64,000 nucleotides of DNA, taken from the NCBI GenBank assembly GCA_047602735.1, contig JBLKOK010000001.1, forward strand, positions 78,261 to 142,260. The letters run 5' to 3'. Within the stretch, counting starts at the first letter, position 1. The number at the start of each line of letters is the position of its first letter. The stretch comes from Candidatus Woesearchaeota archaeon (GTDB lineage: Archaea > Nanobdellota > Nanobdellia > Woesearchaeales > 21-14-0-10-32-9). The notes beneath the pieces are model-generated. The model was not told where the DNA came from and did not search any database. It saw only the letters and a list, made by a program, of their open reading frames with translations. A program made the translations under genes and the position numbers. Shown one piece after another: positions 14,374 through 50,456 of the stretch.

Positions 14374-15610
14374 ATTTTATCTCTATTTTTTTTATAGCTA
14401 TTTTTGCAGCTTCAATTAAAGGATCTTTTATGTTAGCCACACAAGGATTATAACAAGTATCTACTTTTACCAAATCATAAATAGTTAGTTTAGATCTTAT
14501 AAACCCCGAGACCATATTTAATCTCCCAGCAACTTCTTCTTTACCAATTATTTGGCAACCTAAAATTAAACCCTTAGAATTACATATAATTTTTAAAATA
14601 TATTCTTCACCACCACAAGTCATATATTTATTAGTTGTTGTAATTTTAGAAACTACTATATTCTCAAAAATAGTATTAGCAATATTTTTAGTTAATCCGA
14701 CGCTTCCAATCACTAAATCACCAATTTTTGAAACCGAGTTTGGTATAAAACCCCCATATTTTTTTTGATTATCTGATAAAATATTTTTTGCTAAGAATTC
14801 ACCTTGCTTTTGAGCTATACTTCCAAGCATGCAATATTCGTATTTATTTGTTATTAAATTTTTAGTTTTAGCCATATCTCCTATTAAATAAGTATTTTTA
14901 TCAATCATTAACTTCTCATTAGGACGATATTTTAAGTCTAATTTTTTTAATATATCAAGATCTGGTTTAAATCCAGTTGAAATAACTAAGTTCTTAGTTT
15001 TGATTTGTTTTATATCAGTTATTTTTTTATTTAAAATAATATTTATACCCTTTTTTTTAAGATAATCGTATACCTTACTAGACATATCTTTATCTAAGTA
15101 ATTAGCAAGCAATGAATCTTTTGATTCCACAATAGTTACGTCAGAGTTCTTAGCTAACGCAAAAGCTAATTCTAATCCTATATAACCTCCCCCTAAAATT
15201 GTTGTGTTTCCAGTTATTTTTTTTAATTTAATTGCATCTTGTTTTGTTTTTAATAAAAAAAAGTCTTTTAATCCTTTTATTTTTGGAATTATTGGTTTAG
15301 ATCCTGTTGCTAATACCAATACATCATAACCAAGAGATTTTTCAATAGATCCATCAAATAAAACTAATGAATTATTTTTTCTTTTAATAGGAAAATGTTG
15401 TTTTAAAAAATTTATATTATCTTCTTTGTAAGAATTGTAAACATCTACACTGCTAATCTTGCCTTCAATAAAATATGGAAGACTGCAAGGACTATATTGA
15501 TTATTGTTTGTTTTATCAACTAATGTTATGTCTACATCTTTATTATAAAACCTTAATTTTCTTGCAAAAGCAGTACCTGCAGTTCCACCACCAACTATTA
15601 CTATTTTCAT
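14366..15610 (-). CDS. FAD-dependent pyridine nucleotide-disulfide oxidoreductase (CoA-disulfide reductase / NADH oxidase family, single redox Cys)
   Basis: MKIVIVGGGTAGTA is the FAD fold. YSPCSLPYFI matches the Cys42 motif of the Nox/Npx/CoADR family. A second GGGYIGLE motif is the NAD fold. Confidence 0.8.
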   Translation of the reverse strand: MKIVIVGGGTAGTAFARKLRFYNKDVDITLVDKTNNNQYSPCSLPYFIEGKISSVDVYNSYKEDNINFLKQHFPIKRKNNSLVLFDGSIEKSLGYDVLVLATGSKPIIPKIKGLKDFFLLKTKQDAIKLKKITGNTTILGGGYIGLELAFALAKNSDVTIVESKDSLLANYLDKDMSSKVYDYLKKKGINIILNKKITDIKQIKTKNLVISTGFKPDLDILKKLDLKYRPNEKLMIDKNTYLIGDMAKTKNLITNKYEYCMLGSIAQKQGEFLAKNILSDNQKKYGGFIPNSVSKIGDLVIGSVGLTKNIANTIFENIVVSKITTTNKYMTCGGEEYILKIICNSKGLILGCQIIGKEEVAGRLNMVSGFIRSKLTIYDLVKVDTCYNPCVANIKDPLIEAAKIAIKKIEIKYG

Positions 15611-30153: not shown

Positions 30154-30813
30154 ATGAATGAATTGATAGAAAAAACAAAACTATTTGTAAAAAAAGAATT
30201 ATTAGGAGAAACAACAGGACATGACTACTGGCATTCATTACAAGTATGGAAAAATGCTAAAAACATAGCAAAAGATAATAAGAATATAGATATGGAAATC
30301 GTGGAATTATCATCTTTACTCCATGATATTGGAGACTGGAAGCTAAATAAATGAAAAACTAATAAACAAAAAACAAAGTTATTTTTAAAAAAACAAAATC
30401 TTCCGGCTGAAAAAATAAATGCTATATTAGAAATAATAGACAATCTAGCCTATAGAGGTTCAAAAGCAAAGAAAAAACCTCTTTCTAAGGAGGGAAAAAT
30501 AGTACAAGATGCAGATAGATTAGAAGCTCTTGGAGCTATAGGTATAGCTAGAAGCTTTGCTACAGGTCAAAGACTAGGTCAAGAGATATACAACCCTAAT
30601 ATAAAGCCACTAATAAATATGAATGAAGAAGAATATAAAAAACAATATACTGGCAAGAGAAAAAACACCACAATAAATCACTTTTATGAAAAACTTTTAA
30701 TTGTAGCAGACCAGATGAATACAAAAAAAGGAAAAGAATTAGCAAAAAAAAGAAAAGAATTCATAGAGTTATATTTAGATCAGTTTTTTAGGGAATGGGA
30801 TGGAAAAAGATAA
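30154..30813 (+). pseudogene. HD-domain phosphohydrolase (YedJ-like) interrupted by one in-frame TGA at 30352..30354
   Basis: A single frame reads ...GHDYWHSLQV...LLHDIGDWKLNK-TGA-KTNKQ...EGKIVQDADRLEALGAIGIARSF...HFYEKLL... The two listed ORFs (30154..30354 and 30619..30813) and the unlisted middle part are all in the same frame. Confidence 0.7.
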
Positions 30814-31801: not shown

Positions 31802-33736
31802 TTAAAATCTTACACTTATAACATCTCTATCTATTTTGTCTGATATTTGTCTAACTTTAGCTTTTAGATCGTCATCTAGGGTTGCGTGTTGTATTTGTTG
31901 TAATAAATCTAGAACTTGACGTACATACCTAACAACGTCTCCCTCGGGCAAGTTAGAATATTCTAATAATTCGCCAAAATCACAACCATCATACCAGTTC
32001 ATTAAAAAGTTTTCAAGTAAGAATAACTGGTTTTTCCTGAAGTAATTGTAGAGTATAGTGTTATCTTTTACTTTTTTGAAAGCGGAAGTAGATATTTCTT
32101 TAGATTTAGTGTTGAATTTATGGTTTTTTCTTTCTTCATAGCATATTCTTCCAACAAATAGAAGTATTTCTTTGTTTGTGAATAAGTTCTTGTTTTTATG
32201 AGTAAATAGTTCTCCTACTAAGAGTTCTTGATTGTATATTCTCATAGAGAAAAGTCCTTTTTCTGTCAATTCAGGGCCGTTTAATCCTTGTACTATGTAG
32301 CCTTCTTTAAACAGCTTTTTTTTCTTTTTTTGAAAACTAGCTTTTATCCTGTTGCTTCCTTTTCTTCCTGCTTGTTGATAAGCATAAAAATTACTTTCAA
32401 GTATTACTTCTTGTTCTTGTTCAGTGTGACTATGGACAAGGTTTAGTATTGTGTTAAATGATAATTTAAACTGGCTTTTTAGAGGTTCTTTATCGTCTTT
32501 TACTATTCTTTCAACAGTGTTTAAGTCCATCATTGTTCTTTCAATGTTTACAATGACAAATCCTTGTTTGTCAATTCCACGTCTACCTGCTCTTCCTGCT
32601 AGTTGAAAGAATTCTTTGCTGTTTATGTACCTAAAGTTTATGCCGTCAAATTTTTCCATACTATCAAATACTACTGTTTTTGCAGGCATATTTATTCCTA
32701 CAGAAAATGTTTCTGTTGCAAACAATACTTTTATTAGTCCTTTAGAGAACAATGTTTCTACTATTTCTTTTAGTACAGGAAGTATTCCTGCGTGATGAAA
32801 CCCTATTCCTTTACTTAGTATTTCCCTTAGAGTTCTTGTAGTGTCAAGGTTTAATACAGATTCATCCGTTTCTTTTAGTCTTTCACGAACTATTTTAGAT
32901 ACTTGAAGAGCTTCATCGTTGTTTAAGTAATTATTTTTTTTAGATAATAATATTGCTTTTTTTTGTGTTTCCATCCTGCTAAAGCAAAAATATATTGCAG
33001 GTAACTTATCTTTTATCTCTTGCATAAGATCTAAGTGGCCTAGCTTTCTTTTTCTTTTGAGTTCTTCAAAGAATCTTCTTCTTTTATACTTGTATTTAGG
33101 TATTTTTTCTAATTTTTTTAGTTCTTTGAGTTCTGATAATTTAGTAAATCCTTTTTCTGAATCATAGAATGTTTGATGAAGAGGTACTGCACGTTTTTTT
33201 TCTGTAACAACATCCACATTATGTTTTTTTATAAAAGATATCCAGTTTGCAAATTGTTTGGCGTTTGGAATAGTAGCCGATAAGCATAGAAATCTTGTGT
33301 GTTCTTTGCTAAATATTATACTTTCCTCCCATACTGTTCCTCTTTCAAAGTCTCCCAAATAATGTATTTCGTCAAAAACTATGTATGCAACATCATCTAA
33401 GTCTGGATCGTTAGCTAAGAGCATATTTCTGTATATTTCCGTAGTCATAATTCTTAGAGGAGCTTCGTGATTAATTGTTACGTCTCCCGTCATTATACCT
33501 ACTTTGTCTTCGCCGTATTGTCTTTTGAAGTCAGCATATTTTTGATTAGATAAAGCTTTTATTGGCGCTGTGTAGATTATTCTTTTTCCTTGATTTAGGT
33601 ATTTGTCAATAACAAAATCTGCAATTAGTGTTTTTCCAGTTCCTGTTGCAGCACTCACAACTACGCTGTGATTGTTCTCTATAGAGTTTATTGATTCTTC
33701 TTGAAATCTGTCTAATTTAAATCCTTTAAACTTCAT
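31802..33736 (-). CDS. Ski2/Mtr4/HelY-like DExH helicase with a DSHCT-like C-terminal domain
   Basis: AATGTGKT, DEIHYLGD, SAT, the motif VI QLAGRAGRRG, and a C-terminal WYDGCDFGELLEYSNLPEGDVVRYVRQVLDLLQQI typical of DSHCT. Confidence 0.85.
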   Translation of the reverse strand: MKFKGFKLDRFQEESINSIENNHSVVVSAATGTGKTLIADFVIDKYLNQGKRIIYTAPIKALSNQKYADFKRQYGEDKVGIMTGDVTINHEAPLRIMTTEIYRNMLLANDPDLDDVAYIVFDEIHYLGDFERGTVWEESIIFSKEHTRFLCLSATIPNAKQFANWISFIKKHNVDVVTEKKRAVPLHQTFYDSEKGFTKLSELKELKKLEKIPKYKYKRRRFFEELKRKRKLGHLDLMQEIKDKLPAIYFCFSRMETQKKAILLSKKNNYLNNDEALQVSKIVRERLKETDESVLNLDTTRTLREILSKGIGFHHAGILPVLKEIVETLFSKGLIKVLFATETFSVGINMPAKTVVFDSMEKFDGINFRYINSKEFFQLAGRAGRRGIDKQGFVIVNIERTMMDLNTVERIVKDDKEPLKSQFKLSFNTILNLVHSHTEQEQEVILESNFYAYQQAGRKGSNRIKASFQKKKKKLFKEGYIVQGLNGPELTEKGLFSMRIYNQELLVGELFTHKNKNLFTNKEILLFVGRICYEERKNHKFNTKSKEISTSAFKKVKDNTILYNYFRKNQLFLLENFLMNWYDGCDFGELLEYSNLPEGDVVRYVRQVLDLLQQIQHATLDDDLKAKVRQISDKIDRDVISVRF

Positions 33737-33767
33737 ATTAAATAAAATAATAAGATATACTTATAAA
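33693..33767. repeat. 75-bp perfect direct repeat, copy 1 (first 44 nt of the helicase CDS plus 31 nt upstream)
   Basis: Base-by-base identical to 35019..35093. Confidence 0.95.
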
Positions 33768-33941
33768 ACCTTTCAAAAAGAAATAGAACTATCCCTTATT
33801 TTTTAAATAATTCCCCGCATTTTCCCTATCCGTAGATAGCCAAGCTTTAGAAATATATTTTTCACTAGCAATATAAATATGTCTTCAAGATAGTAATTCG
33901 TTTCCAAAAATTTTTTAAATATACTCAGAAATAATAAGTTT

Positions 33942-34955
33942 ATGAAACGCAATATACTCATATGGTTTGGTCTTCTGTTCGCTTGGTATATTGTCGGAAT
34001 CGTGATTACTGATTTTAGTACAGCATTTTTTTTCTTGTTGTTTCCCCCTCTTATCTTTCTTATTTCTGGATTTGTTCTTGCTCGCATGAAGCACCATAAT
34101 TTAAACGAACAAATAGAGTATGACATTTTAGAGATGAGTTTGTCAATTAGTGCTGGTGCGTTAGGGTTTGCGATTACTTTGTTTGTTATTAGTCTCTTAC
34201 TTCCTCTTCAAGGACAGCTCTTTGTAGTTACTACTCTATACATTCTTCTTGTTCCTTCGTGTCTTGTTATGAGCCTTACTACGTACCTTACTGCTAAGCG
34301 TATCGCAAATAAAACCCCTACTTCCGGAGGAATTACTGCCAGTGTTCTTTTTGCGTTACTTGTTATTGTTATAAGTATTAGCGTGTTAGTTAATCCTTCT
34401 AGCAGTTCTAGTGGTTTGTATACTTCTCTTGTTAACTTCCCCGAAACAGATGTTGAGGTTCTTAACACGATTGCTTCTCAAGATCAAAGAAGAGTAGACT
34501 TATTTATTGAGGTATATAGTTCTAATAGGAACTTTGATACGTTTACTCGTAAACAAGTAGATGATTTAATAAACAGTATTTCTGGTTCTATAAAAGAAGA
34601 CATTATTATTAGCTATATGTATGCTCAACACCTGTTATACACACAGGACTTTGAGGTGTATTCTCGAGAGGACATCTTATCTCATGAGTGTTATTATCAA
34701 TTACATCAGCAAAGAAACGATCTTTCTGGTATAGGAGGTATTATTTCTGATACTCATATTCCATATGTTATGCGAAGAATTATTTTGGCCAGTTCGCTTT
34801 CTTCTATGATTGAAATCTTCACCGATCTCTTAAGTACTAATTATTACAAAGACCTCTATGCTAATTTGTTTGCCGAATCCGAGCTTTATGAAGATCTTGT
34901 TTCTTCTCAAATAGCAAATTATTTAGTTTATTCATATATTGATTCTAGTTGTTAA
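33942..34955 (+). CDS. Membrane protein of unknown function, cargo of the repeat-bracketed insertion
   Basis: 337 aa. The N-terminal half has about 5 hydrophobic segments. The protein is Lys-poor and Ser/Leu-rich. Six of 11 Arg codons are CGN, versus mostly AGA in neighbouring genes. Confidence 0.65.
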   Translation: MKRNILIWFGLLFAWYIVGIVITDFSTAFFFLLFPPLIFLISGFVLARMKHHNLNEQIEYDILEMSLSISAGALGFAITLFVISLLLPLQGQLFVVTTLYILLVPSCLVMSLTTYLTAKRIANKTPTSGGITASVLFALLVIVISISVLVNPSSSSSGLYTSLVNFPETDVEVLNTIASQDQRRVDLFIEVYSSNRNFDTFTRKQVDDLINSISGSIKEDIIISYMYAQHLLYTQDFEVYSREDILSHECYYQLHQQRNDLSGIGGIISDTHIPYVMRRIILASSLSSMIEIFTDLLSTNYYKDLYANLFAESELYEDLVSSQIANYLVYSYIDSSC

Positions 34956-34987
34956 TACTATTATTCAAACTAAGTATTATTTTTTAT

Positions 34988-35062
34988 CTAAACACTTAGG
35001 CTTACTGGATTGATTATAGATTCTTCTTGAAATCTGTCTAATTTAAATCCTTTAAACTTCAT
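34988..35062 (-). pseudogene. Duplicated 5' remnant of the Ski2-like helicase gene
   Basis: ATG at 35062 and MKFKGFKLDRFQEE are identical to the real gene start. The sequence then diverges to a stop at 34988..34990. Confidence 0.8.
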
Positions 35063-35093
35063 ATTAAATAAAATAATAAGATATACTTATAAA
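35019..35093. repeat. 75-bp perfect direct repeat, copy 2
   Basis: Identical to 33693..33767. Confidence 0.95.
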
Positions 35094-35175
35094 TCATTCT
35101 AAAATAATTATTTTCTATATAGAAAATAAATATGAGTTAAAATAGTTAAAGATATATTTTTATATTGAGTAAGAT

Positions 35176-36093
35176 TTGTTAATAAATATGTTATGCGTAG
35201 TAGCGTTTATCGTGTTTGGAATTATGGGTATTTTTTCTTTAAAGTATAGAACACTAGCAAAAGAAGCGCTAAATTGTACTTTTCGAAGAGTTACTTTAAG
35301 AAAATGCGATACTGGTCTTGATAAAAAAGTTAAAAATATGTTTGTTGCCAAGCTTGGACGAAAACATCCACGACTTGGACGTTTTTTATATAAGTACTTT
35401 GAAGTTTTTACATGGATACTAATACTATTAACTGCTTGGTCTATGTATGAGATAGGAGTAGGAACGTATAACTATGCTGTTTACGGAAGTTGTATAAAGC
35501 CAGGAGATAGCGGAGTTTGTATTTTAAACATACAAGAGTCATTAAACCAATACTCCACTATTAGAGCAGATTATCCAGATGAGATGATTTATCCAAGCCC
35601 TAAAGGTCCAAGCATAGGTAATAGTGAATCAGATATCATAGTAATAATGTTTGGATGTTTTACTTGCCCTTATACAACACTCGCAATTCCGAAGATAGAT
35701 GAATTAATTGAAGAATACAAAGACGAAGTTTTATTTGTGTTTAAAGATTTCCCTATACTCAATCATAGATACGCATTTGAAACAGCAACATATGCAAAGT
35801 GTGCTTTAGAACAAAATAAATATTTTGAAGCAAGAACTCTAATTTACACAAATCCCTATTATCATAGCAGACCTGGTGAACTTGCAATAGAATTAAACTT
35901 AGACTTAGATTTGTTTAATGAGTGTATAAATAGTGAAGAAACTGAAAATTATGTGTTTGATGTGTTTGAAGAAGGAATTAACGCACATATTAGAGCAACC
36001 CCTACATTTTTTATTAATGAAGAAATAATAACAGGATCAAGAGATTCGGATATAGATAGAATAAGAAGAGTTATTGAAGAAGAACTAAGATGA
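35176..36093 (+). CDS. DsbA-like thioredoxin-fold oxidoreductase fused to an N-terminal two-TM Cys-containing domain
   Basis: The C-terminal domain has FGCFTCPY (CxxC) and the cis-Pro TPTFFI. The N-terminal region has 2 hydrophobic segments plus Cys pairs (NCTFRRVTLRKC and SCIKPGDSGVC). Confidence 0.7.
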   Translation: MLINMLCVVAFIVFGIMGIFSLKYRTLAKEALNCTFRRVTLRKCDTGLDKKVKNMFVAKLGRKHPRLGRFLYKYFEVFTWILILLTAWSMYEIGVGTYNYAVYGSCIKPGDSGVCILNIQESLNQYSTIRADYPDEMIYPSPKGPSIGNSESDIIVIMFGCFTCPYTTLAIPKIDELIEEYKDEVLFVFKDFPILNHRYAFETATYAKCALEQNKYFEARTLIYTNPYYHSRPGELAIELNLDLDLFNECINSEETENYVFDVFEEGINAHIRATPTFFINEEIITGSRDSDIDRIRRVIEEELR

Positions 36094-37259: not shown

Positions 37260-37306
37260 AAAAGTAAAATTATAAATAAAAAACATATTTACTTAATAGT
37301 GATAAT

Positions 37307-38527
37307 ATGATTGTTAACTTAGAAAACAATATACTAAAAAAGAATTTTTCTAATAAAAAACTGGTTTGTTCAGATATAAATACTAGTTATAGCCCTAAAA
37401 AAATTTATGATAGAGAAAGCCTAGAAAATAATGAGCACGTACATAGAGCAATACTTAAGCTTATAGGAAAAAAAGAAAACAAAGGATTAGAAACTAAACT
37501 AGAAAGAACAAAAACTAAACTAGAAGAAGCAAAGAATACTATAAATGAATTAATAGAAACAGAAATAAAATTAAAAAAAATAAATGAAACATATCAACAA
37601 GAACCAAAAAATGCGACTTTTATGTTAGATCAATATAAAGAATTTATAACCGAACTAAGAGAAAACGAGACAGTTAATAATTATTATGAAGAAATAAACG
37701 TTTTAGAAAAAAAATTTATTGGAATGATAAATTCACCTAGAAAAGAGAAAAACATTAACAGAGCAAAAACAGAAGGAATAAAAAGAAAATTATATGGCTT
37801 TTTGAAAAAACAAAATAAATTTAAAACCCACCAATATATGAAAAAAATAACAAAAGAAGTATATACTTACAAAAACGACTTCGAGCTTCTAATGGACTAC
37901 GAAGATAATAAAATAAACTTTGAAAAACCAACAAAAATATTTTCTAAAACAAAAAAACAAATTAAAGAAGAATTAAGAATAATAGAGAAAGAAAAAAAAG
38001 AACTATCAAAAATAGTAGAAGAAACAAAAAAAGAAAAAAAAGAATATGAAAAGGAAAAGCAAGATTTTTTTGATATAAACATAAAAAAAGAACTTAACAA
38101 CTTAGGATACATACAACTTTTAACCTTGTATAAAGAAAATGTTAATGGGGAAGAAAAAAGATATATAGGTAATGAAAAGTTAGATGAAAAACAAACCAGA
38201 GGCTTAATAGAAATAGACTCAGAATTAAATATAACATATACTTCATTTGAAGGAGAAACAATTAATACAAATAGAAAGCTTCTAGGACTTATATATACAC
38301 CTAGTCTAAGATATAATATAAGCGAATATGAAATAGGACAAAAAAACTATGAACGCGGAGACGTAATAGAATACCCAGATATATTTAATGAAGAATATGC
38401 TAAAAACATAAAATTAAGCGAGGTTTTAATAAATGAGTTAGAACTAGGAAGAGTAATAGTTTCTTATGATCAAAAAACAAAAGAATATTTCTTAGAAGGA
38501 AAAATAATTGATAAAATCCTAAACTAA
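37307..38527 (+). CDS. Hypothetical Lys/Glu-rich coiled-coil protein (406 aa)
   Basis: ORF only. Confidence 0.5.
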   Translation: MIVNLENNILKKNFSNKKLVCSDINTSYSPKKIYDRESLENNEHVHRAILKLIGKKENKGLETKLERTKTKLEEAKNTINELIETEIKLKKINETYQQEPKNATFMLDQYKEFITELRENETVNNYYEEINVLEKKFIGMINSPRKEKNINRAKTEGIKRKLYGFLKKQNKFKTHQYMKKITKEVYTYKNDFELLMDYEDNKINFEKPTKIFSKTKKQIKEELRIIEKEKKELSKIVEETKKEKKEYEKEKQDFFDINIKKELNNLGYIQLLTLYKENVNGEEKRYIGNEKLDEKQTRGLIEIDSELNITYTSFEGETINTNRKLLGLIYTPSLRYNISEYEIGQKNYERGDVIEYPDIFNEEYAKNIKLSEVLINELELGRVIVSYDQKTKEYFLEGKIIDKILN

Positions 38528-39531: not shown

Positions 39532-40470
39532 TTAGTTTCTTTCAACTATCACATTCTTTTGAATGTTTTCGTTGTAGTCATAAACAAGTTCTATGTTAAA
39601 AGGTTGTATCCTTGGACTTCTTTCACTAAACGAAATATCACAAGTTATATCAACAACCCCTTGATCACTTAAAACTATGTATCCTTCACTCGGATTAGCA
39701 CCCTCTCTTAATCCTCTACAACTAACTTCTTCTCCTTGAGCTGAACTAAAGCCAGATACTCTTAAGAAAATTCTGTCATTTCTTCTAGCATCACTTGCAC
39801 AACTGTAACCAGTTTCAAATACTCTTCCCTGGTCTCTGTTTTCAATTGTGAAACTAACTCTTGTTCTATCACTACCCGCAGCAGATTGAGTCATCCTAGT
39901 TATTTGTATAGGTGCAGCACTATTAAAGACTTGTCTGCTTGCTGAAACAGTACAAATATCACCTGTTCTATCTCTTCTAAAATCTTCCTTTACACAAACA
40001 CTCGTAGATACCTGAGTTGAATATTTATAACAAATATCTGCTCTTACAGGAAAAGCCTGATTTCCTTGAACAATATTTTGATAAGCAAAATCATTAAACT
40101 CTACTTCTACAGGTACACTACTAACTATGCTCCCATCAGGGTTTTTAAGATTTCTTTCTATTAATTCTGGACTGTTAGAAGTTAAATCAGCAACATTTCT
40201 TCCAAACTGAGAAGCAGGAAATCCACTGATTGTTACAAGAACATCTTTTGGTTCAACATCAGCTTCACCCCTATTTGTAACTTTTACAATTATGTCAAAA
40301 GGGTCCTCTCCACCGTCACTAACTGTTGCAGGCGGAAAACTATCTACAAAAGAAATTTTCAAACCTTGCGTTCCTCCAATAAACGGAGTCGTACTATCAA
40401 ATCCCGTGTTTGACTCACAAGCTGCAAGTAAAAGCAGCATCGCCGTCAATATAATAAACATTTTTTTCAT
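39532..40470 (-). CDS. Secreted Cys-rich lipobox protein, paralogue 3 of the surface-protein operon
   Basis: The signal peptide ends in LLLAAC. It has 6 further Cys and shares motifs with 40493..41803 and 41832..42809 (CYKYSTQVSTSVCV, AAPIQIT, FTIENRDQGRVFE, ELVYDYNENIQKNVIVER). Confidence 0.75.
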   Translation of the reverse strand: MKKMFIILTAMLLLLAACESNTGFDSTTPFIGGTQGLKISFVDSFPPATVSDGGEDPFDIIVKVTNRGEADVEPKDVLVTISGFPASQFGRNVADLTSNSPELIERNLKNPDGSIVSSVPVEVEFNDFAYQNIVQGNQAFPVRADICYKYSTQVSTSVCVKEDFRRDRTGDICTVSASRQVFNSAAPIQITRMTQSAAGSDRTRVSFTIENRDQGRVFETGYSCASDARRNDRIFLRVSGFSSAQGEEVSCRGLREGANPSEGYIVLSDQGVVDITCDISFSERSPRIQPFNIELVYDYNENIQKNVIVERN

Positions 40471-40492
40471 TTTTTACCTCCTAAAGTAATTG

Positions 40493-41803
40493 TTAACTTA
40501 ATCTCCTTACGCGCAGATTATTATTAATATTTTGCTCATAACCATACCAAAGCTCCATTCTAAGAGGAGTAACATAAGCACTTCCACTTATAAATTCATC
40601 TGCAAAATTATAAGTACAAGTAAATCTACCAACCCCATTATTTAATCTTATGGTTCTTTGAGTACAATCTATGAATGTATCATCTATCATTACAAACCCA
40701 ACATAAACTACATCATGATGATTTCTACCAGTTCCAGTTTCTGGATAATAAGGACTGCAACGCTCAAGGCTTCCAACCTCCCAAACACGTCCGTTACCAA
40801 CATTTCTTACTTCAAAATCCATCACTACACTTCTCCCAGTGTTTCTTTGACTAACTCTTGTAACTGCAACAGGAGCACCTTGATTACTCATAGCTATATC
40901 TTGATTAGCCCTACAAACACCCCTATCACCACTCCAAGGATCAGGATCTACACAAATCATAGGACTAACAAAAGTAGTATATGCATAACAGCTTCTTACC
41001 TGATAAGGAATATTTATTTCATCAGTCCCACTAGGCCAACTACCCTTCATTTGAACTAAAAATTGTTTATAATCATCTCCACCACCTGGAAACTCAGGAT
41101 TATCCCCTCTTAAAGTATAAGTCATACCATTTAAATTTTCAAAATTAAAATTGCCATATATTAAAGACATTAAAAGCTTACCATGATATAAAGTATTTAA
41201 TTGAAAACCATCCAAAGCAAGATTAAAACCCCAATGATTGCCTGTTTGTTGAATTCCAACCCTAACTCCTTCAGGAAGATCCCATCCAAATGCTCTATTC
41301 ATTTGACTAAAATCAAAATTAATTGTTCTTCTATCACCCGCTCCCCTAACACCTATACCACCACAATTTAAATTAAAATTAGGTAAAGGACCAAAAGAAC
41401 CAAAACTAAAACCACAACTATCACCAAAACCTCTTATATTAATAGGTAACTCAGTTCCATCCCCGTATATCCTTGTGACTTCAAAAGTAGGACCAAAACC
41501 AGATAAAAACACAGCTCCATAAGCATCACTCGCACCCCTATTATGAACCCTAACATTTAATTGAATTGCATTACCATCTCTTGTGTTAGTAGCATCTATA
41601 GATCTGTAATAAAGCATGTTTGGAGGCCTATCCAAAATTATGTCAACTCCCTGGGTGCCCGTATAATATCTACAATTTTGACCCTCAGCACAAGCAACAG
41701 CTCTATCAGCACCAAAACCACCACAACCAGCTATAAAAAGTAACGAAACTAATAATACAGGTAATAAAAATTTATTTTTCATAGTAAGTATACTCATAAA
41801 CAT
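40493..41803 (-). CDS. Secreted Cys-rich lipobox protein, paralogue 2 (Gly/Asn-rich insert)
   Basis: The likely start is MKNKFLL (41782). Lipobox FIAGC; 10 further Cys. Motifs are CYAYTTFVSPMICV, GAPVAVT, FEVRNVGNGRVWE and ELWYGYEQNINNNLRVRR. Confidence 0.75.
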   Translation of the reverse strand: MFMSILTMKNKFLLPVLLVSLLFIAGCGGFGADRAVACAEGQNCRYYTGTQGVDIILDRPPNMLYYRSIDATNTRDGNAIQLNVRVHNRGASDAYGAVFLSGFGPTFEVTRIYGDGTELPINIRGFGDSCGFSFGSFGPLPNFNLNCGGIGVRGAGDRRTINFDFSQMNRAFGWDLPEGVRVGIQQTGNHWGFNLALDGFQLNTLYHGKLLMSLIYGNFNFENLNGMTYTLRGDNPEFPGGGDDYKQFLVQMKGSWPSGTDEINIPYQVRSCYAYTTFVSPMICVDPDPWSGDRGVCRANQDIAMSNQGAPVAVTRVSQRNTGRSVVMDFEVRNVGNGRVWEVGSLERCSPYYPETGTGRNHHDVVYVGFVMIDDTFIDCTQRTIRLNNGVGRFTCTYNFADEFISGSAYVTPLRMELWYGYEQNINNNLRVRRLS

Positions 41804-41831
41804 AGTATTTAAAAGTTACCATTTTTAGAAG

Positions 41832-42809
41832 CTAATTTCTTCTTATTTCTACTTGTTTTGAAGTTTGGTCTAAATAATAATAATCAAGCCAAACAGTTAA
41901 AACATCTTGATAACTGCTTGAAGCCCCGAATAAATCATCTTCTTGAACAACACACCTAACTCTCGCCTGATTATTTCTAAGAATAACAGGGTTTGGAGTG
42001 CAATCAAGCTTTATCCCTAGTAATTCAGCCTCTACTTTTATTTCACCAAGAATCCTGTCTGAGCTAGCAGTACAAGCACCTAACCCTTTATCAGTTCCAA
42101 AAACTAAGCCTTGGCCTAAGTTTCTTATAGTTATCTCAAAACTAGGTTGTAAAAGCATAAGTCTTGCTTCAACAACTTCAGAGCCAATTCGCCTTAAATT
42201 ACCATCTTCATCTAAATAAGACCTAGCAGTATCTTGACTTGAAGAAATAAAACCTCTTGGAATAACAGTAGGTTCAATACTTGTTATACCCACAGGAGCT
42301 CCTTGACCTGAATAAGAATGCATAGTTCTTGATCTACAAACACTATTTCTTTGAGTTCCAAATAAATCACTATCTATACAAAAGAAATCTGTGAGTATCG
42401 TAGTGTAAGGATAACAAGTAGATACAGAAATAGAAGTTCTGACTGTCTCTCTTGAACCAGTAATTGATCTTACTTGAAGATTTTCCAAATCACTAATAAA
42501 ACCCATTTCTCCAAAAGGATAATCAGGCTGCTTACCCAATAATTCAAACTCTTCTATTATCTTCCCAGAACCAGTAAAATAAAAAGTATCATACTCAAAA
42601 ATTACTTTGCCGTTTGTATCAAAAGCACCTCTGTTATATACGTTTGCACCAAGCATAAAAGGAGTGTCTTCATAAATTGTAACAGGAGGAGTGTTTTGAG
42701 CAAAACTTGCAACAACCCCCTCTCTTCCCTGAAAATAATTAACCTCACTAAATGAAGGTTGAGAACAAGCCGCAAGTATTAGCAAAACTAATAATAAATA
42801 CCTCATCAT
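41832..42809 (-). CDS. Secreted Cys-rich lipobox protein, paralogue 1
   Basis: Lipobox ILAAC; 6 further Cys. Motifs are CYPYTTILTDFFCI, GAPVGIT, ITIRNLGQGLVFG and VWLDYYYLDQTSKQVEIRR. Its ATG overlaps the upstream stop (ATGA). Confidence 0.75.
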   Translation of the reverse strand: MMRYLLLVLLILAACSQPSFSEVNYFQGREGVVASFAQNTPPVTIYEDTPFMLGANVYNRGAFDTNGKVIFEYDTFYFTGSGKIIEEFELLGKQPDYPFGEMGFISDLENLQVRSITGSRETVRTSISVSTCYPYTTILTDFFCIDSDLFGTQRNSVCRSRTMHSYSGQGAPVGITSIEPTVIPRGFISSSQDTARSYLDEDGNLRRIGSEVVEARLMLLQPSFEITIRNLGQGLVFGTDKGLGACTASSDRILGEIKVEAELLGIKLDCTPNPVILRNNQARVRCVVQEDDLFGASSSYQDVLTVWLDYYYLDQTSKQVEIRRN

Positions 42810-44650
42810 GAGCTACCACCTGGAAGTCTTAAAACATTAATATCAGTTCTAGAAGTTAATTGATAATCATAACTAACTTCAGCAAAAATAGTTACCGGTC
42901 TTACACCAGAACTTGAAATTTGATCAACACTTCTATCGTTAATTTTTGCATTACAACTTACAGCTAAGAAATTAATATCAGAATCAAAATCATAACTGTA
43001 AATAACATAGTTTTGATCTGGATCAGTACCTTGTCTAGTGAGAGGAATAGTACATTGGTTACCTTCAAAACTTATAGCTTCAGGAACTCTTGTTTCAAAG
43101 TTGTTTATCCTTGTTATTTCTCCCCTTAATTGATTATTTCTAATACCAAAATCTAGAGCAAAGAAAGTATCTCTATCATCAAATGTAGGTATTGGCATAG
43201 TTACAGATTCATTCATACCTAAAAATACAGGCCCATTAGTATAAATATTTGTTGGCCTTAAAGGAATTCTATGTCTTTGATTCCAAGTTTGCCTTGAAGC
43301 TTCTTCTAAAGTAGATCTTGGAACAAAATAATAAGTACTATAAGCACTTGTTTTAAAGTTAAACCTAGCATCTAACCTAGCGCTAAATCTTCCCGCACTT
43401 ATATTCATATCCTCAAAATCACAAAATATTCTTCTATCCTCAAAGTCAGAAACATTTATACTCGGAGGAGTTGTAGTCCCCATAACTTCTCTTCCATTCC
43501 TATCCGTCAACGAACAGAAAAATTCAACTTCTACGTTATCAATATAAGATCTTACTTGGAAATCAGCAAATACTCGTATAGGTTGATTTTCATAAAAAGT
43601 ACTAGCAGGTCTTAAGTTATCTAAAAACACCCCTGAACGCTCCCTAGTATTCTCTACTTGAGCAGCATATCCTCTACCAAGAGTTTCATTAAGTCTTGCA
43701 TCTACAGCACCAGTTATAGCCCCATAAGTATTTTTTATATTATCAGTTATAGCAGACAAAGCACTAGATAAATATTCTCTTCCATCCCCAATAACTTCAT
43801 CTGTATCTAATCCTTGTGCAGAACCAACTTCTCCAATAGTTCCTGAAAATGAATTTAACATTAAAAACAAAGCAATAGTTATCATCGCCGCCAAATAAAA
43901 TAAACTAGCCCTCCCTAAGAAGCCTTGATTTATTTGTTTTGCAAATACTAAGTATAAAACCCAAACAGGTATAAACATAAATGCAACATTTAACTGACTT
44001 ATTATTACTTGATCAATAGGAAGCATACTAAACAACCTGCCTATCTGCGGAATAATAAATAACGGAAATAAACTAACAAAAAAGAATTCTTTTAATGCGA
44101 CACCTTTATCCATTTTAATTAATGCTAAACCCGCTAAAGATAATAACATGTAAAGAAATATTCTTTGCATAATCGTAATGGTATCAATTCTAAAACCAAA
44201 ATATAAAAAATCTATAATGTGAACAAGTATAGCTAATGCTAAAAGTATTTGACCTCCTCCCTGATTATTTTCTTCAGGATTATAATCTGATTTTTTAAGT
44301 AACCAACTAAGTCCAGCACCTATAGCCGCTCCAGCACCTACAGCTAATTTTTTAGATCTTAAAGCAGATTGATTATTAGGAGCTTGAGGACTATTTTGAT
44401 TATTAGCTTGATTGTTTTGCTGAGACTGACTTAACTGACTTTGCAACCTACTAACTCTTTGTTCTAATTCTTTTAAATGATCTTCAGATGCTTTTTTAGC
44501 ATCACCCTCTAATGACTCATGACGCTTACTTGCAATACTATGAGCTATTTTAGCAGACTGAAGCATACTCATAATTTTTTCTTCGCTACCTATTGCAGCA
44601 GATCTTGTTCTCATATCAGCACCCGCTCTAGCAAGTAATTGCCAGACCAT
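42806..44650 (-). CDS. Polytopic membrane protein with a cytoplasmic coiled-coil/QN-rich N-terminus and a large ectodomain related to the lipobox paralogues
   Basis: 614 aa, with about six hydrophobic segments (residues ~100-270). The C-terminal 330 aa contain FGIRNNQLRGEI and a terminal EVSYDYQLTSRTDINVLR resembling the paralogue signatures. The ectodomain has 4 Cys. Confidence 0.7.
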   Translation of the reverse strand: MVWQLLARAGADMRTRSAAIGSEEKIMSMLQSAKIAHSIASKRHESLEGDAKKASEDHLKELEQRVSRLQSQLSQSQQNNQANNQNSPQAPNNQSALRSKKLAVGAGAAIGAGLSWLLKKSDYNPEENNQGGGQILLALAILVHIIDFLYFGFRIDTITIMQRIFLYMLLSLAGLALIKMDKGVALKEFFFVSLFPLFIIPQIGRLFSMLPIDQVIISQLNVAFMFIPVWVLYLVFAKQINQGFLGRASLFYLAAMITIALFLMLNSFSGTIGEVGSAQGLDTDEVIGDGREYLSSALSAITDNIKNTYGAITGAVDARLNETLGRGYAAQVENTRERSGVFLDNLRPASTFYENQPIRVFADFQVRSYIDNVEVEFFCSLTDRNGREVMGTTTPPSINVSDFEDRRIFCDFEDMNISAGRFSARLDARFNFKTSAYSTYYFVPRSTLEEASRQTWNQRHRIPLRPTNIYTNGPVFLGMNESVTMPIPTFDDRDTFFALDFGIRNNQLRGEITRINNFETRVPEAISFEGNQCTIPLTRQGTDPDQNYVIYSYDFDSDINFLAVSCNAKINDRSVDQISSSGVRPVTIFAEVSYDYQLTSRTDINVLRLPGGSS

Positions 44651-44651
44651 T

Positions 44652-45818
44652 TTATTTTAACTCAACTTTGAGCTCAGTTATATCCACAGTTTGAAGAGCT
44701 CTAACTTCTAATGAATTAGAACCTGGAACTAAATAAGACGAAACATCTCTTGTAAACACAGAATCTGCAACGTTTACAGATATAAATCTGCCATTAAGGA
44801 ATATTTCCAATCTTTTCCTGTCTGGATTTGTAAACCTTAAATTTAGCTCAGCCTCTCTATTTTGTCTTAAGGTTTCATTTTCATAAAAATACTTTTCATC
44901 AACATCAAAAATAAAAAGAGGGTTATCCGGTATTTCTAATCTTTTAAGTAATCTAAGTTGATCTATTGTTATAGTTCCATCATCAATACTAAACTCTAAA
45001 TAATTTACCCCTGGATATAAGTCTTCTCTAGATAAACTTATATGATTAAAAATATTACAATCAGGAATTCCTCTAAATACCGTGTTATGATTTACTTTTA
45101 TCTCAAAGTTGCTTACTTGCCCAGGATTACAAGTTGCTAAGTATCTTAATCTTGCAGTACTTAACAAAACTGCGTCTCTTTCAGATAAACTCATAGTTTG
45201 AGTGTTAAAAGATCTAGTTATATCAGTTACGTCACCAACCACTCTTAGATTTGAGATGTCGTAATAATTGTATGACCAAAATACTAAACCAGGACTAGAA
45301 ACTAAAAATTTTAATGTGTTTGAATTTCTAAGATCTGAATTATCAATGTATATAGGAGGACTATTCCCATCTATTTCTCCAAAGAAAATTCTTTTATCAT
45401 TTAGCAATACTTCTAATCTTCCCTTACCAACTGCGTTGAACGTGACTATTAAGTCTTCAGCTAACTCAGGATTTATATTAAAAGTCAAAGTATCATCTAT
45501 ATTATCAAATAAACTGTTTTTTACATATAAATTAGATTTACTAGCAACAACCTCCGCAGAAGTAAGAGTTCTCAAATTAAAACTTTGAAGATCTAAACCT
45601 AATTCTGAATCTGGAACAAAATTTAACCTACCAATAAATTCATCAACAAGAACTAGAGGTCTTGACGCAGAAGGCTCAGTAGAAGAATCACCATTATTTA
45701 ATAATGCTTCTCTGTCTGCTGGAGGTAAAAACAATATATATAAGACTATAACAACAGTTATAACAATAAGAGTTATAGCCGCACTATTTGCACTAGATTG
45801 AGCTTTTTTGAATTTCAT
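44652..45818 (-). CDS. Prepilin-like (class III signal-like) surface protein with three internal beta-sandwich-like repeats
   Basis: The N-terminus is MKFKKAQSSANSAAITLIVITVVIVLYILF (basic residues, A/Q, then a hydrophobic helix). Three segments share the pattern LE[VI]xLN...F...G.N.L.F...I..L.V. Confidence 0.65.
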   Translation of the reverse strand: MKFKKAQSSANSAAITLIVITVVIVLYILFLPPADREALLNNGDSSTEPSASRPLVLVDEFIGRLNFVPDSELGLDLQSFNLRTLTSAEVVASKSNLYVKNSLFDNIDDTLTFNINPELAEDLIVTFNAVGKGRLEVLLNDKRIFFGEIDGNSPPIYIDNSDLRNSNTLKFLVSSPGLVFWSYNYYDISNLRVVGDVTDITRSFNTQTMSLSERDAVLLSTARLRYLATCNPGQVSNFEIKVNHNTVFRGIPDCNIFNHISLSREDLYPGVNYLEFSIDDGTITIDQLRLLKRLEIPDNPLFIFDVDEKYFYENETLRQNREAELNLRFTNPDRKRLEIFLNGRFISVNVADSVFTRDVSSYLVPGSNSLEVRALQTVDITELKVELK

Positions 45819-50380: not shown

Positions 50381-50456
50381 TATGAATTGTTAATATTACC
50401 TTATATTAATAGTTAATCAAGTAATATTTAAATAAAGAAAGGTTTTCTAGAATGAT

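What the first reader, a model, noticed from the sequence alone, without database searches (positions are those of the whole stretch)
33693..35093. 1.25 kb insertion bracketed by perfect 75-bp direct repeats that duplicate the 5' end of the Ski2-like helicase gene
33693..33767 and 35019..35093 are identical base for base. Each copy contains the first 44 nt of the helicase CDS (MKFKGFKLDRFQEE) plus 31 nt of its upstream region. The left copy heads the intact gene. The right copy heads a 24-codon remnant (34988..35062).

The 1251 bp between the copies carry a single + strand gene (33942..34955) with atypical codon usage. Without the insert, the helicase gene and the DsbA-like gene (35176) would be simple divergent neighbours.

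This is the footprint expected of site-specific integration at an att site overlapping a gene's 5' end. No integrase, transposase or terminal inverted repeats are present. It may therefore be a decayed or minimal element, or a product of an unusual recombination mechanism.
Basis: partly seen in the sequence, partly recalled or inferred. Interest (0 to 1): 0.65.

Follow-up and report, generated by a model that had tools for sequence, protein, structure and literature searches.

The report
Single-gene insertion flanked by promoter duplication
A small DPANN archaeon (Woesearchaeota) recently gained one foreign membrane-protein gene, inserted so that the promoter and start of a neighbouring helicase gene are duplicated exactly on both sides; the only two known relatives of that gene sit between similar duplications in other archaea, which hints at a gene cassette that moves without a recombinase of its own.

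Summary
Window 33693-33767 and 35019-35093 are an exact 75-bp direct repeat with sharp ends, and it is the only sizeable repeat in the 64 kb.

- **What the repeat is.** On the helicase strand it holds the TATA box (-31), a 24-nt spacer, the ATG and 41 more nt. That is a leaderless core promoter plus 14.7 codons.
- **Empty site.** The two closest relatives (helicase 80-82% aa) have helicase and DsbA as divergent neighbours 119-138 bp apart. The window's right flank aligns to that spacer (z 15-20).
- **The insert.** It is 1,251 bp with its own TATA box, a 337-aa five-TM protein and a T6 tract. Codon usage is a strong outlier (z -4.8).
- **No recombinase.** I found no terminal inverted repeats, no attC-like fold, and no integrase or transposase anywhere in the window.
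- **Read support.** Independent k=31 assemblies from at least 7 sequencing runs reproduce both junctions exactly.
- **New result.** Only two homologues exist among 1.8 billion representative proteins. One is bracketed by a ~68-bp, 86% duplication of a tRNA-endonuclease 3' end plus TATA box. The other is bracketed by a repeated promoter spacer. Five of six other insertions in these loci show nothing similar and one shows only a weak match.

Best reading: a recent, recombinase-less single-gene cassette, integrated by recombination between a circular form and the target. The mechanism is inferred, not shown.

The parts
33693..33767 (.). Left copy of the exact 75-bp direct repeat. It heads the intact helicase gene.
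   Evidence: Identical to 35019-35093. It holds CDS nt 1-44 plus 31 nt upstream.
35019..35093 (.). Right copy of the 75-bp repeat. It is contiguous with the ancestral helicase-DsbA spacer.
   Evidence: The flank 35094-35230 aligns to the L023, L024 and L025 intergenic regions with z = 20, 15 and 8.
33761..33767 (-). TATA box (TTTATAA, -31 to -25 from the ATG) of the intact helicase gene, at the very edge of the repeat.
   Evidence: A TATA-like hexamer starts at -31 to -28 from the ATG in 19 window genes, which indicates leaderless architecture. Relatives have a TATA box at the same place.
35087..35093 (-). Duplicate helicase TATA box, now heading the remnant ORF and pointing into the 3' end of the cargo gene.
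   Evidence: Sequence identity. Its activity is inferred.
31802..33736 (-). Ski2-like DEAD/DSHCT helicase gene (644 aa), intact.
   Evidence: Pfam DEAD, Helicase_C and DSHCT. Orthologues are 80-82% identical in L023, L024 and L025.
33768..35018 (+). The 1,251-bp insert: own promoter, one gene and an oligo-T tract. It has no terminal inverted repeats.
   Evidence: Absent from L023 and L024. TIR test at background. Reproduced exactly in Logan contigs L029 and L030.
33914..33923 (+). TATA box (TTTAAATATA) of the cargo gene, starting at -28 from its ATG.
33942..34955 (+). Cargo gene: 337 aa, five N-terminal TM helices and a helical C-terminal domain with two invariant Cys. Function unknown.
   Evidence: No match in Pfam, PHROGs, PADLOC or PDB. 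Only two homologues, P0122 and P0123, aligned over full length. Codon outlier. AF2 pLDDT 45-48.
34980..34985 (+). T6 tract 25 nt after the cargo stop codon, a likely archaeal terminator signal.
   Evidence: Sequence. No significant hairpin or attC-like fold in 34950-35018. Its function is inferred.
34988..35062 (-). 24-codon remnant ORF: the first 14.7 helicase codons fused to the end of the insert.
   Evidence: There is no helicase homology beyond +44.
35108..35129 (.). 22-bp perfect palindrome TTATTTTCTATATAGAAAATAA, conserved upstream of the helicase in relatives. It now lies next to the remnant copy, 1.3 kb from the intact gene.
   Evidence: Unique in the window. Conserved in L023, L024 and L025. 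Not duplicated in the insert.
35188..36093 (+). DsbA-like thioredoxin-fold gene (301 aa from the ATG), the ancestral divergent neighbour of the helicase.
   Evidence: Pfam Thioredoxin_4 and DSBA. The start aligns with L023 and L024.

Best explanation
A self-contained single-gene expression cassette (own TATA box, a 337-aa membrane-protein gene and an oligo-T tract) was acquired recently from a compositionally different genome. It integrated into the helicase/DsbA divergent promoter region of a Woesearchaeota chromosome.

The integration has Campbell topology. A circular form, made of the cassette plus one copy of the 75-bp target, recombined reciprocally with the chromosomal target. The target (helicase TATA box, spacer, ATG and 41 nt of CDS) therefore now lies on both sides. 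The recombination function is supplied in trans, either by host homologous recombination or by an unlinked recombinase.

- The left copy keeps the helicase gene and its core promoter intact.
- The right copy is a dead 24-codon stub. It retains the ancestral upstream palindrome and probably fires antisense into the cassette.
- The direct repeats make the insertion reversible by looping out a 1,326-bp circle.

Shown: the insertion, the empty site in relatives, the foreign composition, the absence of a recombinase in cis, the junctions in reads, and the recurrence of the footprint in the gene family. Inferred: the circular intermediate, the recombination enzyme, and the antisense transcription.
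For: - Exact, sharp-ended 75-bp repeat, unique in the window.
- Empty site in L023 and L024, with the right flank homologous to their spacer.
- Codon-usage outlier, z = -4.8.
- The insert holds only one non-recombinase gene. It has no TIRs and no attC-like fold.
- No integrase or transposase among all window ORFs of 120 aa or more.
- Both junctions are reproduced in at least 7 sequencing runs, and the k=31 graph branches at the repeat in every one.
- The family has only three members.
- In L026, L031 and L032 the homologue is bracketed by a ~68-bp duplication covering the last 51 nt of EndA (86% identity) plus the TATA box.
- In L027 a 23-45-nt promoter spacer is repeated on both sides of the homologue, and again after the next two genes.
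- Flank-to-flank alignment gives z = 42, 22 and 12 for the three family loci. Five other lineage-specific insertions give z < 1, and one gives z = 3.7.
- A recombinase-free precedent exists: PeSL mini-circles in T4-type phages (PMC2839356).
Against: - No circular form, empty-site allele or recombinase has been seen.
- The origin of a circle that already carries a host-identical 75-bp segment is unexplained.
- 75 bp is a short substrate for RadA-type homologous recombination.
- The repeat is single-copy in the window, unlike PeSL motifs, which occur at many loci.
- The L027 spacer repeat may simply be a strong promoter consensus, since a fourth spacer is also similar.
- The recurrence rests on only 2-3 independent loci.
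Confidence: 0.45

Rival explanations
1. Target-site duplication made in situ. Two nicks 75 nt apart on opposite strands, or a staggered break at the promoter, were filled in. A captured foreign DNA fragment was ligated between the two filled ends. This would be either a transposase-like enzyme acting in trans or plain break repair.
For: - The two copies are 100% identical with sharp ends, as expected for a fill-in duplication.
- No recombinase and no shared att core among family members.
- Duplication lengths differ between loci (75, about 68, and 28-45 nt), as in imprecise repair.
- Each repeat/insert boundary abuts a TATA-like box.
Against: - No known prokaryotic transposase or casposase makes duplications of 45-75 bp. 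From my own recollection, casposon duplications are 14-15 bp; PMC6563490 was read only for the general definition of target-site duplications and does not give that figure.
- There are no TIRs.
- The L026 copies differ by 14%, and 4 of the 7 changes are synonymous. That fits a homeologous copy brought in better than an in-situ duplication, although decay could also explain it.
- Random capture does not explain why the same gene family shows the footprint three times.
Confidence: 0.15
2. Remnant of a larger integrative element (a provirus or plasmid with its own tyrosine integrase). It integrated site-specifically at an attB overlapping the helicase 5' end and then lost everything except one gene. 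This would be a CIME-like relic.
For: - Direct repeats that restore a gene end are the classic attL/attR footprint (PMC6563490).
- CIMEs are defined as elements that kept attL/attR but lost their integration genes (PMC5704250).
- The L026 duplication lies at a protein gene's 3' end, a common archaeal target.
Against: - Independent decay to the same single gene would be needed in L026 as well, where the insert is 1,126 bp.
- Perfect repeat identity and unameliorated codon usage argue for a recent event, leaving little time for decay.
- No related larger element or cargo homologue was found in viral, plasmid or metagenome collections.
- No integrase in the window.
- No shared att core.
Confidence: 0.15
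3. Replication-based template switching (of the MMBIR/FoSTeS kind). The nascent strand left the helicase promoter, copied foreign DNA, and re-annealed 75 nt upstream of where it left, so that it re-copied the segment.
For: A 4-nt TTAT match, offset by one mismatch, lies at the insert-end/helicase junction (TTATA|GATTC against TTATT|GATTC). A BRE-like GAAAGGT sits next to the TATA box on the insert side, which is compatible with a join inside TATA microhomology.
Against: The microhomologies are within chance for 70% A+T DNA. This model does not explain the recurrence in one gene family, nor the L026 copies that differ partly at synonymous sites.
Confidence: 0.1
4. Assembly artefact. The chromosome carries the empty site, and a separate 1,326-bp circle (insert plus one repeat copy) was threaded into the contig through the shared 75 bp.
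For: A k=31 graph cannot separate the integrated form from empty site plus circle, because both give the same branches. No contig on record spans the repeat with an identical full-length helicase.
Against: - Both junctions are real in reads of at least 7 runs from two accession series.
- In each of the six Logan contigs shown that carry this DsbA gene, the contig stops exactly 30 nt inside the repeat, so no shown sample has an unbranched empty site. A seventh contig of the same kind was not displayed.
- A 1.3-kb circle with no replication gene is not a plausible stable replicon.
- The L026-type footprint, with copies 86% identical, cannot be a graph artefact and is reproduced in three assemblies.
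Confidence: 0.07

Closest known systems
attL/attR-flanked integrative elements of archaea, and their integrase-less relics (CIMEs)
   Same: An insert bracketed by direct repeats identical to a single-copy target. [quoted passage not shown] Relatives show the empty site. In principle it can be excised as a circle.
   Different: - The insert has no integrase, and none is found within 64 kb.
- The unit is one gene of 1.1-1.25 kb in both the window and L026.
- The target is the 5' end plus core promoter of a protein gene. In Thaumarchaeota, 14 of 68 elements used 3'-distal regions of protein genes (PMC6563490).
- The targets of the three homologous cassettes differ and share no core.
PeSL mobile regulatory cassettes and mini-circles of T4-type phages (PMC2839356)
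   Same: ORFan genes flanked by direct repeats that contain a promoter. No dedicated recombinase. Recombination between the repeats yields small circles that could re-insert at another copy. The result is single-gene gain and loss between conserved genes.
   Different: PeSLs are a repeated motif at many loci in one phage genome. Here the 75-bp repeat is a unique host promoter plus gene start, in a cellular archaeal chromosome. No circles have been observed here.
Campbell-type insertion-duplication by a single crossover (as with suicide plasmids in the laboratory)
   Same: The exact topology: target, insert, target, with two identical copies and arbitrary, sharp repeat ends.
   Different: It needs a circle that already carries host DNA, and no source for such a circle is known here. 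The homology is only 75 bp.
Target-site duplications of transposons and casposons
   Same: Identical direct repeats of target sequence on both sides of an insert.
   Different: There is no transposase or Cas1 and no terminal inverted repeats. The duplications are 45-75 bp and vary in length, rather than being short and fixed.
Integron gene cassettes
   Same: A promoter-proximal single-gene cassette without a recombinase of its own. L027 looks like a small array with a repeated boundary sequence.
   Different: No attC-like imperfect palindrome and no intI/attI platform in the window. Here the repeats are copies of host sequence.

Membership tests
Integrase-mediated integrative element (attL/attR) | Direct repeats flanking the insert that match a single-copy site in genomes lacking the insert | tested here: met
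   75/75 identity. L023 and L024 have one copy between helicase and DsbA.
Integrase-mediated integrative element (attL/attR) | Element-encoded tyrosine or serine integrase | tested here: not met
   The insert holds one ORF with no Pfam, PHROGs or PADLOC match and no recombinase motifs. No recombinase in any window ORF of 120 aa or more.
Integrase-mediated integrative element (attL/attR) | Conserved att core shared by related elements | tested here: not met
   The window repeat, the L026 repeat and the L027 spacer share no word of 8 nt or more, only TATA-like heptamers. The targets differ: helicase 5' end against EndA 3' end.
Integrase-mediated integrative element (attL/attR) | Excised circular form with a reconstituted attP, and an empty attB in the population | not testable with these tools
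   No reads are available. The k=31 contigs are compatible with either state.
CIME (integrase-less relic of an ICE, IME or provirus) | [quoted passage not shown] | tested here: inconclusive
   The first half is met. No parent element or cargo homologue was found in viral, plasmid or metagenome collections. The same single-gene unit in L026 argues against independent decay.
DDE transposon / IS / casposon | Transposase or Cas1, terminal inverted repeats, and a short target-site duplication of fixed length | tested here: not met
   No such gene. TIR score at background, with 296 of 1000 shuffles as good. Duplications are 75, about 68 and 28-45 nt.
Integron gene cassette | attC imperfect palindrome at the cassette's 3' end, and an intI/attI platform | tested here: not met
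   Fold of 34950-35018 has z = 0.24. No Rfam hit. No integrase in the window.
PeSL-like mobile regulatory cassette | ORFan flanked by direct repeats that contain a promoter | tested here: met
   The repeat starts at the helicase TATA box. The L026 and L027 repeats include TATA boxes.
PeSL-like mobile regulatory cassette | The repeated regulatory motif is dispersed at many loci of the same genome | tested here: not met
   Only two copies in 64 kb. L027 has three or four similar spacers in 4 kb.
PeSL-like mobile regulatory cassette | Mini-circles formed by recombination between flanking repeats | not testable with these tools
   This needs reads or inverse PCR.

The most novel reading that the evidence does not exclude
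The 337-aa membrane-protein gene family marks a previously unrecognised kind of recombinase-less single-gene mobile cassette in DPANN archaea. It would insert beside TATA boxes or gene boundaries and duplicate 45-75 bp of the target, including a core promoter, so that the host gene stays expressed. It would be able to loop out again through the repeats. This would be a general route by which streamlined archaeal genomes gain and lose ORFans.
Probability: 0.2. Interest if true: 0.75.

Novelty: new variant of a known kind. Interest (0 to 1): 0.55.

Why it matters
DPANN archaea have tiny, gene-dense genomes full of lineage-specific ORFans, and almost nothing is known about how single genes enter them.

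This locus is an unusually clean, very recent gene gain. The empty site is known, the donor composition is still visible, and the scar is intact. The scar is a duplicated leaderless core promoter plus gene start, which explains how an insertion 44 nt inside a conserved helicase gene could be tolerated.

All three known members of the cargo family sit between comparable duplications, in genomes of 30%, 45% and 59% G+C. If that reflects a mechanism, it would be a new recombinase-independent, or trans-mobilised, way of moving genes in archaea.

It also gives a concrete test case for excision, circle formation and antisense control of a newly acquired gene.

Tried and rejected
1. **Second, diverged copy of the helicase upstream region on the insert side.** Rejected. 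Local alignment of 33768-33941 to the relatives' spacers gives z of 2 or less, and the 28-bp palindrome has no second copy in the insert. What remains is a BRE-like GAAAGGT (13/15 with L025; anchored z = 3.4, 2 of 1000 shuffles), which is unexplained.
2. **Helicase homology beyond +44 in the remnant.** None found.
3. **Remnant of an EndA 3' end inside the insert**, as a trace of an earlier EndA-linked location. None found.
4. **Terminal inverted repeats, attC-like fold and Rfam families.** Nothing.
5. **Cargo function.** Pfam, PHROGs, PADLOC and a PDB profile search gave nothing. Both AF2 models are too poor (pLDDT 45-48) for a fold search, so none was run.
6. **Cargo or repeat on viral or plasmid DNA.** None.
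7. **Same species in JGI metagenomes, by a 50-nt exact pattern.** None. More family members there: none.
8. **Exact-protein look-ups** of the full-length or 5'-cut helicase, the 305-aa DsbA and the 289-aa cargo. Not on record.
9. **Flanking duplications as a general feature of insertions in these genomes.** Rejected. Five of six other insertions have z < 1, and one (L023 toxin-antitoxin plus SDR) has a weak z = 3.7.
10. **Duplication of the RFC promoter around the neighbouring 406-aa insertion.** The flank-to-flank test is not significant, although the ancestral RFC promoter clearly lies upstream of the inserted gene.
Full report
**Observation**

The two 75-bp segments, 33693-33767 and 35019-35093, are identical base for base. 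Identity ends abruptly on both sides: the adjoining 60 nt match at 17/60 and 21/60, which is background for this 30% G+C DNA. No other copy exists in the window, and no other direct repeat of comparable length and identity occurs in the 64 kb.

- 31802-33736 (-) is a Ski2-like DEAD/Helicase_C/DSHCT helicase.
- 35188-36093 (+) is a membrane-anchored DsbA/thioredoxin_4 protein.
- 33942-34955 (+) is the only long ORF between the repeats.
- The right copy heads a 24-codon ORF, MKFKGFKLDRFQEESIINPVSLSV*.

**What the repeat is**

Read on the helicase strand, the repeat is TTTATAA, then 24 nt, then ATG, then 41 nt. In this genome a TATA-like hexamer starts at -31 to -28 from the ATG in 19 genes. That is a sharp peak and indicates leaderless transcripts. 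The helicase orthologues of relatives have a TATA box at the same distance. The repeat is therefore the helicase core promoter from the outer edge of its TATA box, plus the first 14.7 codons.

**Organism and empty site**

Helicase relatives place the window in the Woesearchaeota, a DPANN lineage. The closest helicases in 5.8 billion proteins are 80-82% identical. Their contigs show the following.
- L023 (JGI 3300075147) has RFC, SufS, DsbA, a 119-bp spacer, then helicase.
- L024 (ENA ERZ27301260) has DsbA, a 138-bp spacer, then helicase.
- L025 and L001 carry a VapBC pair at the equivalent place instead of DsbA-SufS.

The window's sequence to the right of the right copy (35094-35230) aligns to those spacers with z = 20, 15 and 8. 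The sequence to the right of the left copy (33768-33941) does not align (z of 2 or less). The ancestral state was therefore helicase, one copy, DsbA, and 33768-35018 plus one repeat copy is an insertion.

More distant relatives have RFC as the direct divergent neighbour of the helicase. The whole RFC-helicase interval is thus a variable spot.

**The insert**

It is 1,251 bp with these parts.
- 174 bp upstream, with a TATA box at -28 (33914-33923).
- A 337-aa ORF.
- A T6 tract 25 nt after the stop codon.
- 33 more nt.

There are no terminal inverted repeats, no attC-like or other significant fold at the 3' end, and no Rfam match.

Codon usage is the strongest outlier among 59 window ORFs, at z = -4.8. 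Third positions are T 0.53 / A 0.20, against about 0.3 / 0.5 in neighbouring genes. The gene uses CTT, CGN, ATT and GAG where the genome uses TTA, AGA, ATA and GAA. The gene has therefore not been in this genome long.

The protein has five predicted N-terminal TM helices and a helical C-terminal half. Invariant features include a K-H-L-x3-I-E-x-D-x-L-E motif and two Cys residues. It matches nothing in Pfam, PHROGs, PADLOC or the PDB, so its function is unknown. It does not look like a recombinase.

**No recombinase nearby**

All window ORFs of 120 aa or more were scanned against Pfam. They are housekeeping archaeal genes (EndA, FEN1, TrpRS, TyrRS, pyruvate kinase, Trm5, PAN, Topo VI A and B, RFC, transketolase, GatB and others) or unknowns that are syntenic in relatives. 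None is an integrase, transposase or Cas1.

**Reality of the junctions**

The cluster of the cargo protein contains a 337-aa member from Logan assemblies.
- Contig L029 (SRR32456830; the same contig is seen in 6 samples) is exactly window 33738-35048. That is 30 nt of the repeat, the insert, then 30 nt of the repeat, 1,311 bp in all. This is what a k=31 graph yields when the insert is bounded by a repeat.
- L030 (SRR28154546) is window 33745-35048.
- Six Logan contigs carrying the identical DsbA gene (SRR32456828, -830, -841, -880, -881, -906) all start at window 35064, the last 30 nt of the right copy. They are 100% identical to the window for up to 11 kb. A seventh contig of the same kind was reported but not shown.

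Both junctions therefore exist in raw reads of at least 7 runs, and each displayed contig carrying this DsbA gene breaks at the repeat. This excludes a chimeric join. It does not by itself separate the integrated form from an empty site plus a free circle.

No contig with an identical full-length helicase, empty or filled, is on record.

**The cargo family carries the footprint elsewhere**

An exhaustive HMMER search of 1.84 billion representative proteins found only two homologues, P0122 (32% identity) and P0123 (30%), both aligned over full length. Word-based, profile, viral, plasmid and JGI-contig searches added none.

P0122 lies on L026, which has 45% G+C, directly after the tRNA-intron endonuclease gene EndA.
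- The last 51 nt of EndA (971-1021) recur at 2148-2198 with 86% identity.
- With small gaps the similarity runs on through the TATA box, giving about 68 nt in all.
- The repeat brackets 1.1 kb that holds only the homologue.
- The same structure is present in two further assemblies, L031 and L032.
- Four of the seven differences between the copies are synonymous in the EndA frame. This hints that one copy came from another EndA allele, although A+T-biased decay could also produce it.

P0123 lies on L027 and L028, which have 59% G+C.
- It probably follows EndA as well.
- It is preceded and followed by a 28-45-nt spacer, TA[AG]CACCACAACCAATAAATA[AG]CG.
- A third copy of the spacer follows the next two genes.
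- A fourth spacer is similar, so this case may partly reflect a promoter consensus.

A uniform flank-to-flank alignment test gives z = 42 (window), 22 (L026) and 12 (L027). Five other lineage-specific insertions in these loci give z < 1, and one gives 3.7. Across about 400 kb of related loci, the only other long dispersed repeats are a tandem gene duplicate and a tandem array. The three repeats share no core of 8 nt or more, but each repeat/insert boundary abuts a TATA-like box.

**Mechanism**

The topology of target, insert, target with identical copies is that of reciprocal recombination between the chromosome and a circle carrying one copy of the target. Two features argue that the single gene is the mobile unit and that recombination is supplied in trans. 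The unit is the same single gene in the window and in L026. And no recombinase is linked. Recombination could come from host homologous recombination or from an unlinked recombinase.

The nearest documented analogue without a dedicated recombinase is the PeSL cassette of T4-type phages. There, ORFans flanked by promoter-containing repeats loop out as mini-circles (PMC2839356). The nearest analogue in footprint is an attL/attR-flanked element that has lost its integrase, a CIME (PMC5704250). Archaeal elements do target the ends of protein genes, but the reported cases are 3' ends (PMC6563490).

I give the circle-plus-trans-recombination reading 0.45. The rivals score as follows.
- In-situ staggered-break duplication with DNA capture: 0.15.
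- A decayed larger element: 0.15.
- Template switching: 0.10.
- A mis-threaded circle in the assembly: 0.07.

What is shown is the insertion, its recency, its foreignness, the lack of a recombinase in cis, the junctions in reads, and the recurrence in the family. The enzyme and the intermediate are inferred.

**Consequences (inferred)**

The intact helicase keeps its TATA box, spacer and start. It has lost the conserved 22-bp perfect palindrome (35108-35129) that lies upstream of the helicase TATA box in the three closest relatives. That palindrome now lies beside the dead right-hand copy.

The insert happens to supply a BRE-like GAAAGGT directly next to the left-copy TATA box. It is identical to L025 at that position. 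Whether this is selection, chance, or a join within TATA microhomology is open.

The right-hand promoter copy points into the 3' end of the cargo gene and could produce antisense RNA.

Recombination between the repeats would restore the empty site and release a 1,326-bp circle.

**Verdict**

The claim of site-specific integration at an att site is not established, and the decayed-element idea is weakened. The locus is best filed as a new variant of repeat-flanked, recombinase-less gene cassettes. Its unusual feature is that the duplicated target is a leaderless core promoter plus gene start, and the cargo family has a suggestive but small (n = 3) association with this footprint.

Noticed in passing
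window 35108-35129: A 22-bp perfect palindrome, TTATTTTCTATATAGAAAATAA. With its flanks it has an 11-6-11 layout (arms match 10/11, spacer TATATA), like a tyrosine-recombinase or dif-type core site. It is unique in the window and one arm is identical in L023, L024 and L025, always upstream of the helicase TATA box. It could be a transcription-factor operator or a recombinase site.
   Followed up: partly
window 37307-38527: A second lineage-specific insertion: a 406-aa Lys/Glu-rich ORFan (23.6% G+C, no Pfam, PHROGs or PADLOC hit) between SufS and RFC, absent from L023. The ancestral RFC promoter (TTATAAATAA..TATTTACTTAA, 37272-37306) now sits in front of the inserted gene, and RFC uses another TATA box at about 38529. 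No significant flanking repeat.
   Followed up: partly
window 33768-33782, compared with L025 5925-5942: The insert side of the left repeat carries GAAAGGT directly upstream of the helicase TATA box. This is identical to L025 and 6/7 with L023, whereas the ancestral right flank has AGAATGA. Anchored alignment gives z = 3.4 (2 of 1000 shuffles). Unexplained: it could be BRE selection, chance, or a join within TATA microhomology.
   Followed up: partly
window 3526-5841: A HerA-like (DUF87) ATPase gene interrupted by an intein with a LAGLIDADG homing-endonuclease domain. This is the only recognisable selfish element in the window.
   Followed up: no
L027 1-4188 and L028 (59% G+C); L026 470-1021: Extreme avoidance of T at third codon positions: 0-3% in all five L027 genes and 5% in L026 EndA, with C and A dominating. 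This is an unusual strand or codon bias in these archaeal contigs.
   Followed up: no
L025 5231-5865 and L001 1942-2576: A VapB/VapC (PIN) toxin-antitoxin pair occupies the RFC-helicase interval in these relatives, where the window and L023 carry DsbA-SufS. The interval is a hotspot for gene turnover.
   Followed up: partly
L023 13465-13549 compared with 14828-14913: There is a weak, gapped similarity (z = 3.7, 4 of 500 shuffles) between the TyrRS 5' end and spacer on one side, and the region in front of the M24 peptidase gene on the other. These two regions flank an inserted PemK toxin-antitoxin pair plus a short-chain dehydrogenase block. It may be an old, decayed boundary duplication of the same type.
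   Followed up: partly
window 30154-30813: Two short ORFs (66 and 64 aa) whose sequences look like the N- and C-terminal parts of an HD-domain phosphohydrolase, between TyrRS and a 216-aa ORFan. Possibly a disrupted gene. This block is absent from L023.
   Followed up: no
window 39532-45818: Five consecutive genes (312-614 aa) with no Pfam match, conserved in order in L023 and L025. This is a conserved Woesearchaeota gene cluster of unknown function.
   Followed up: no
window 50430-50456: GAAAGGTTTTCTAGAATGAT, directly before the ATG of a class II aminoacyl-tRNA synthetase gene, contains both the 10-mer next to the left repeat (GAAAGGTTTT) and the 9-mer next to the right repeat (TAGAATGAT). 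Probably coincidence.
   Followed up: no
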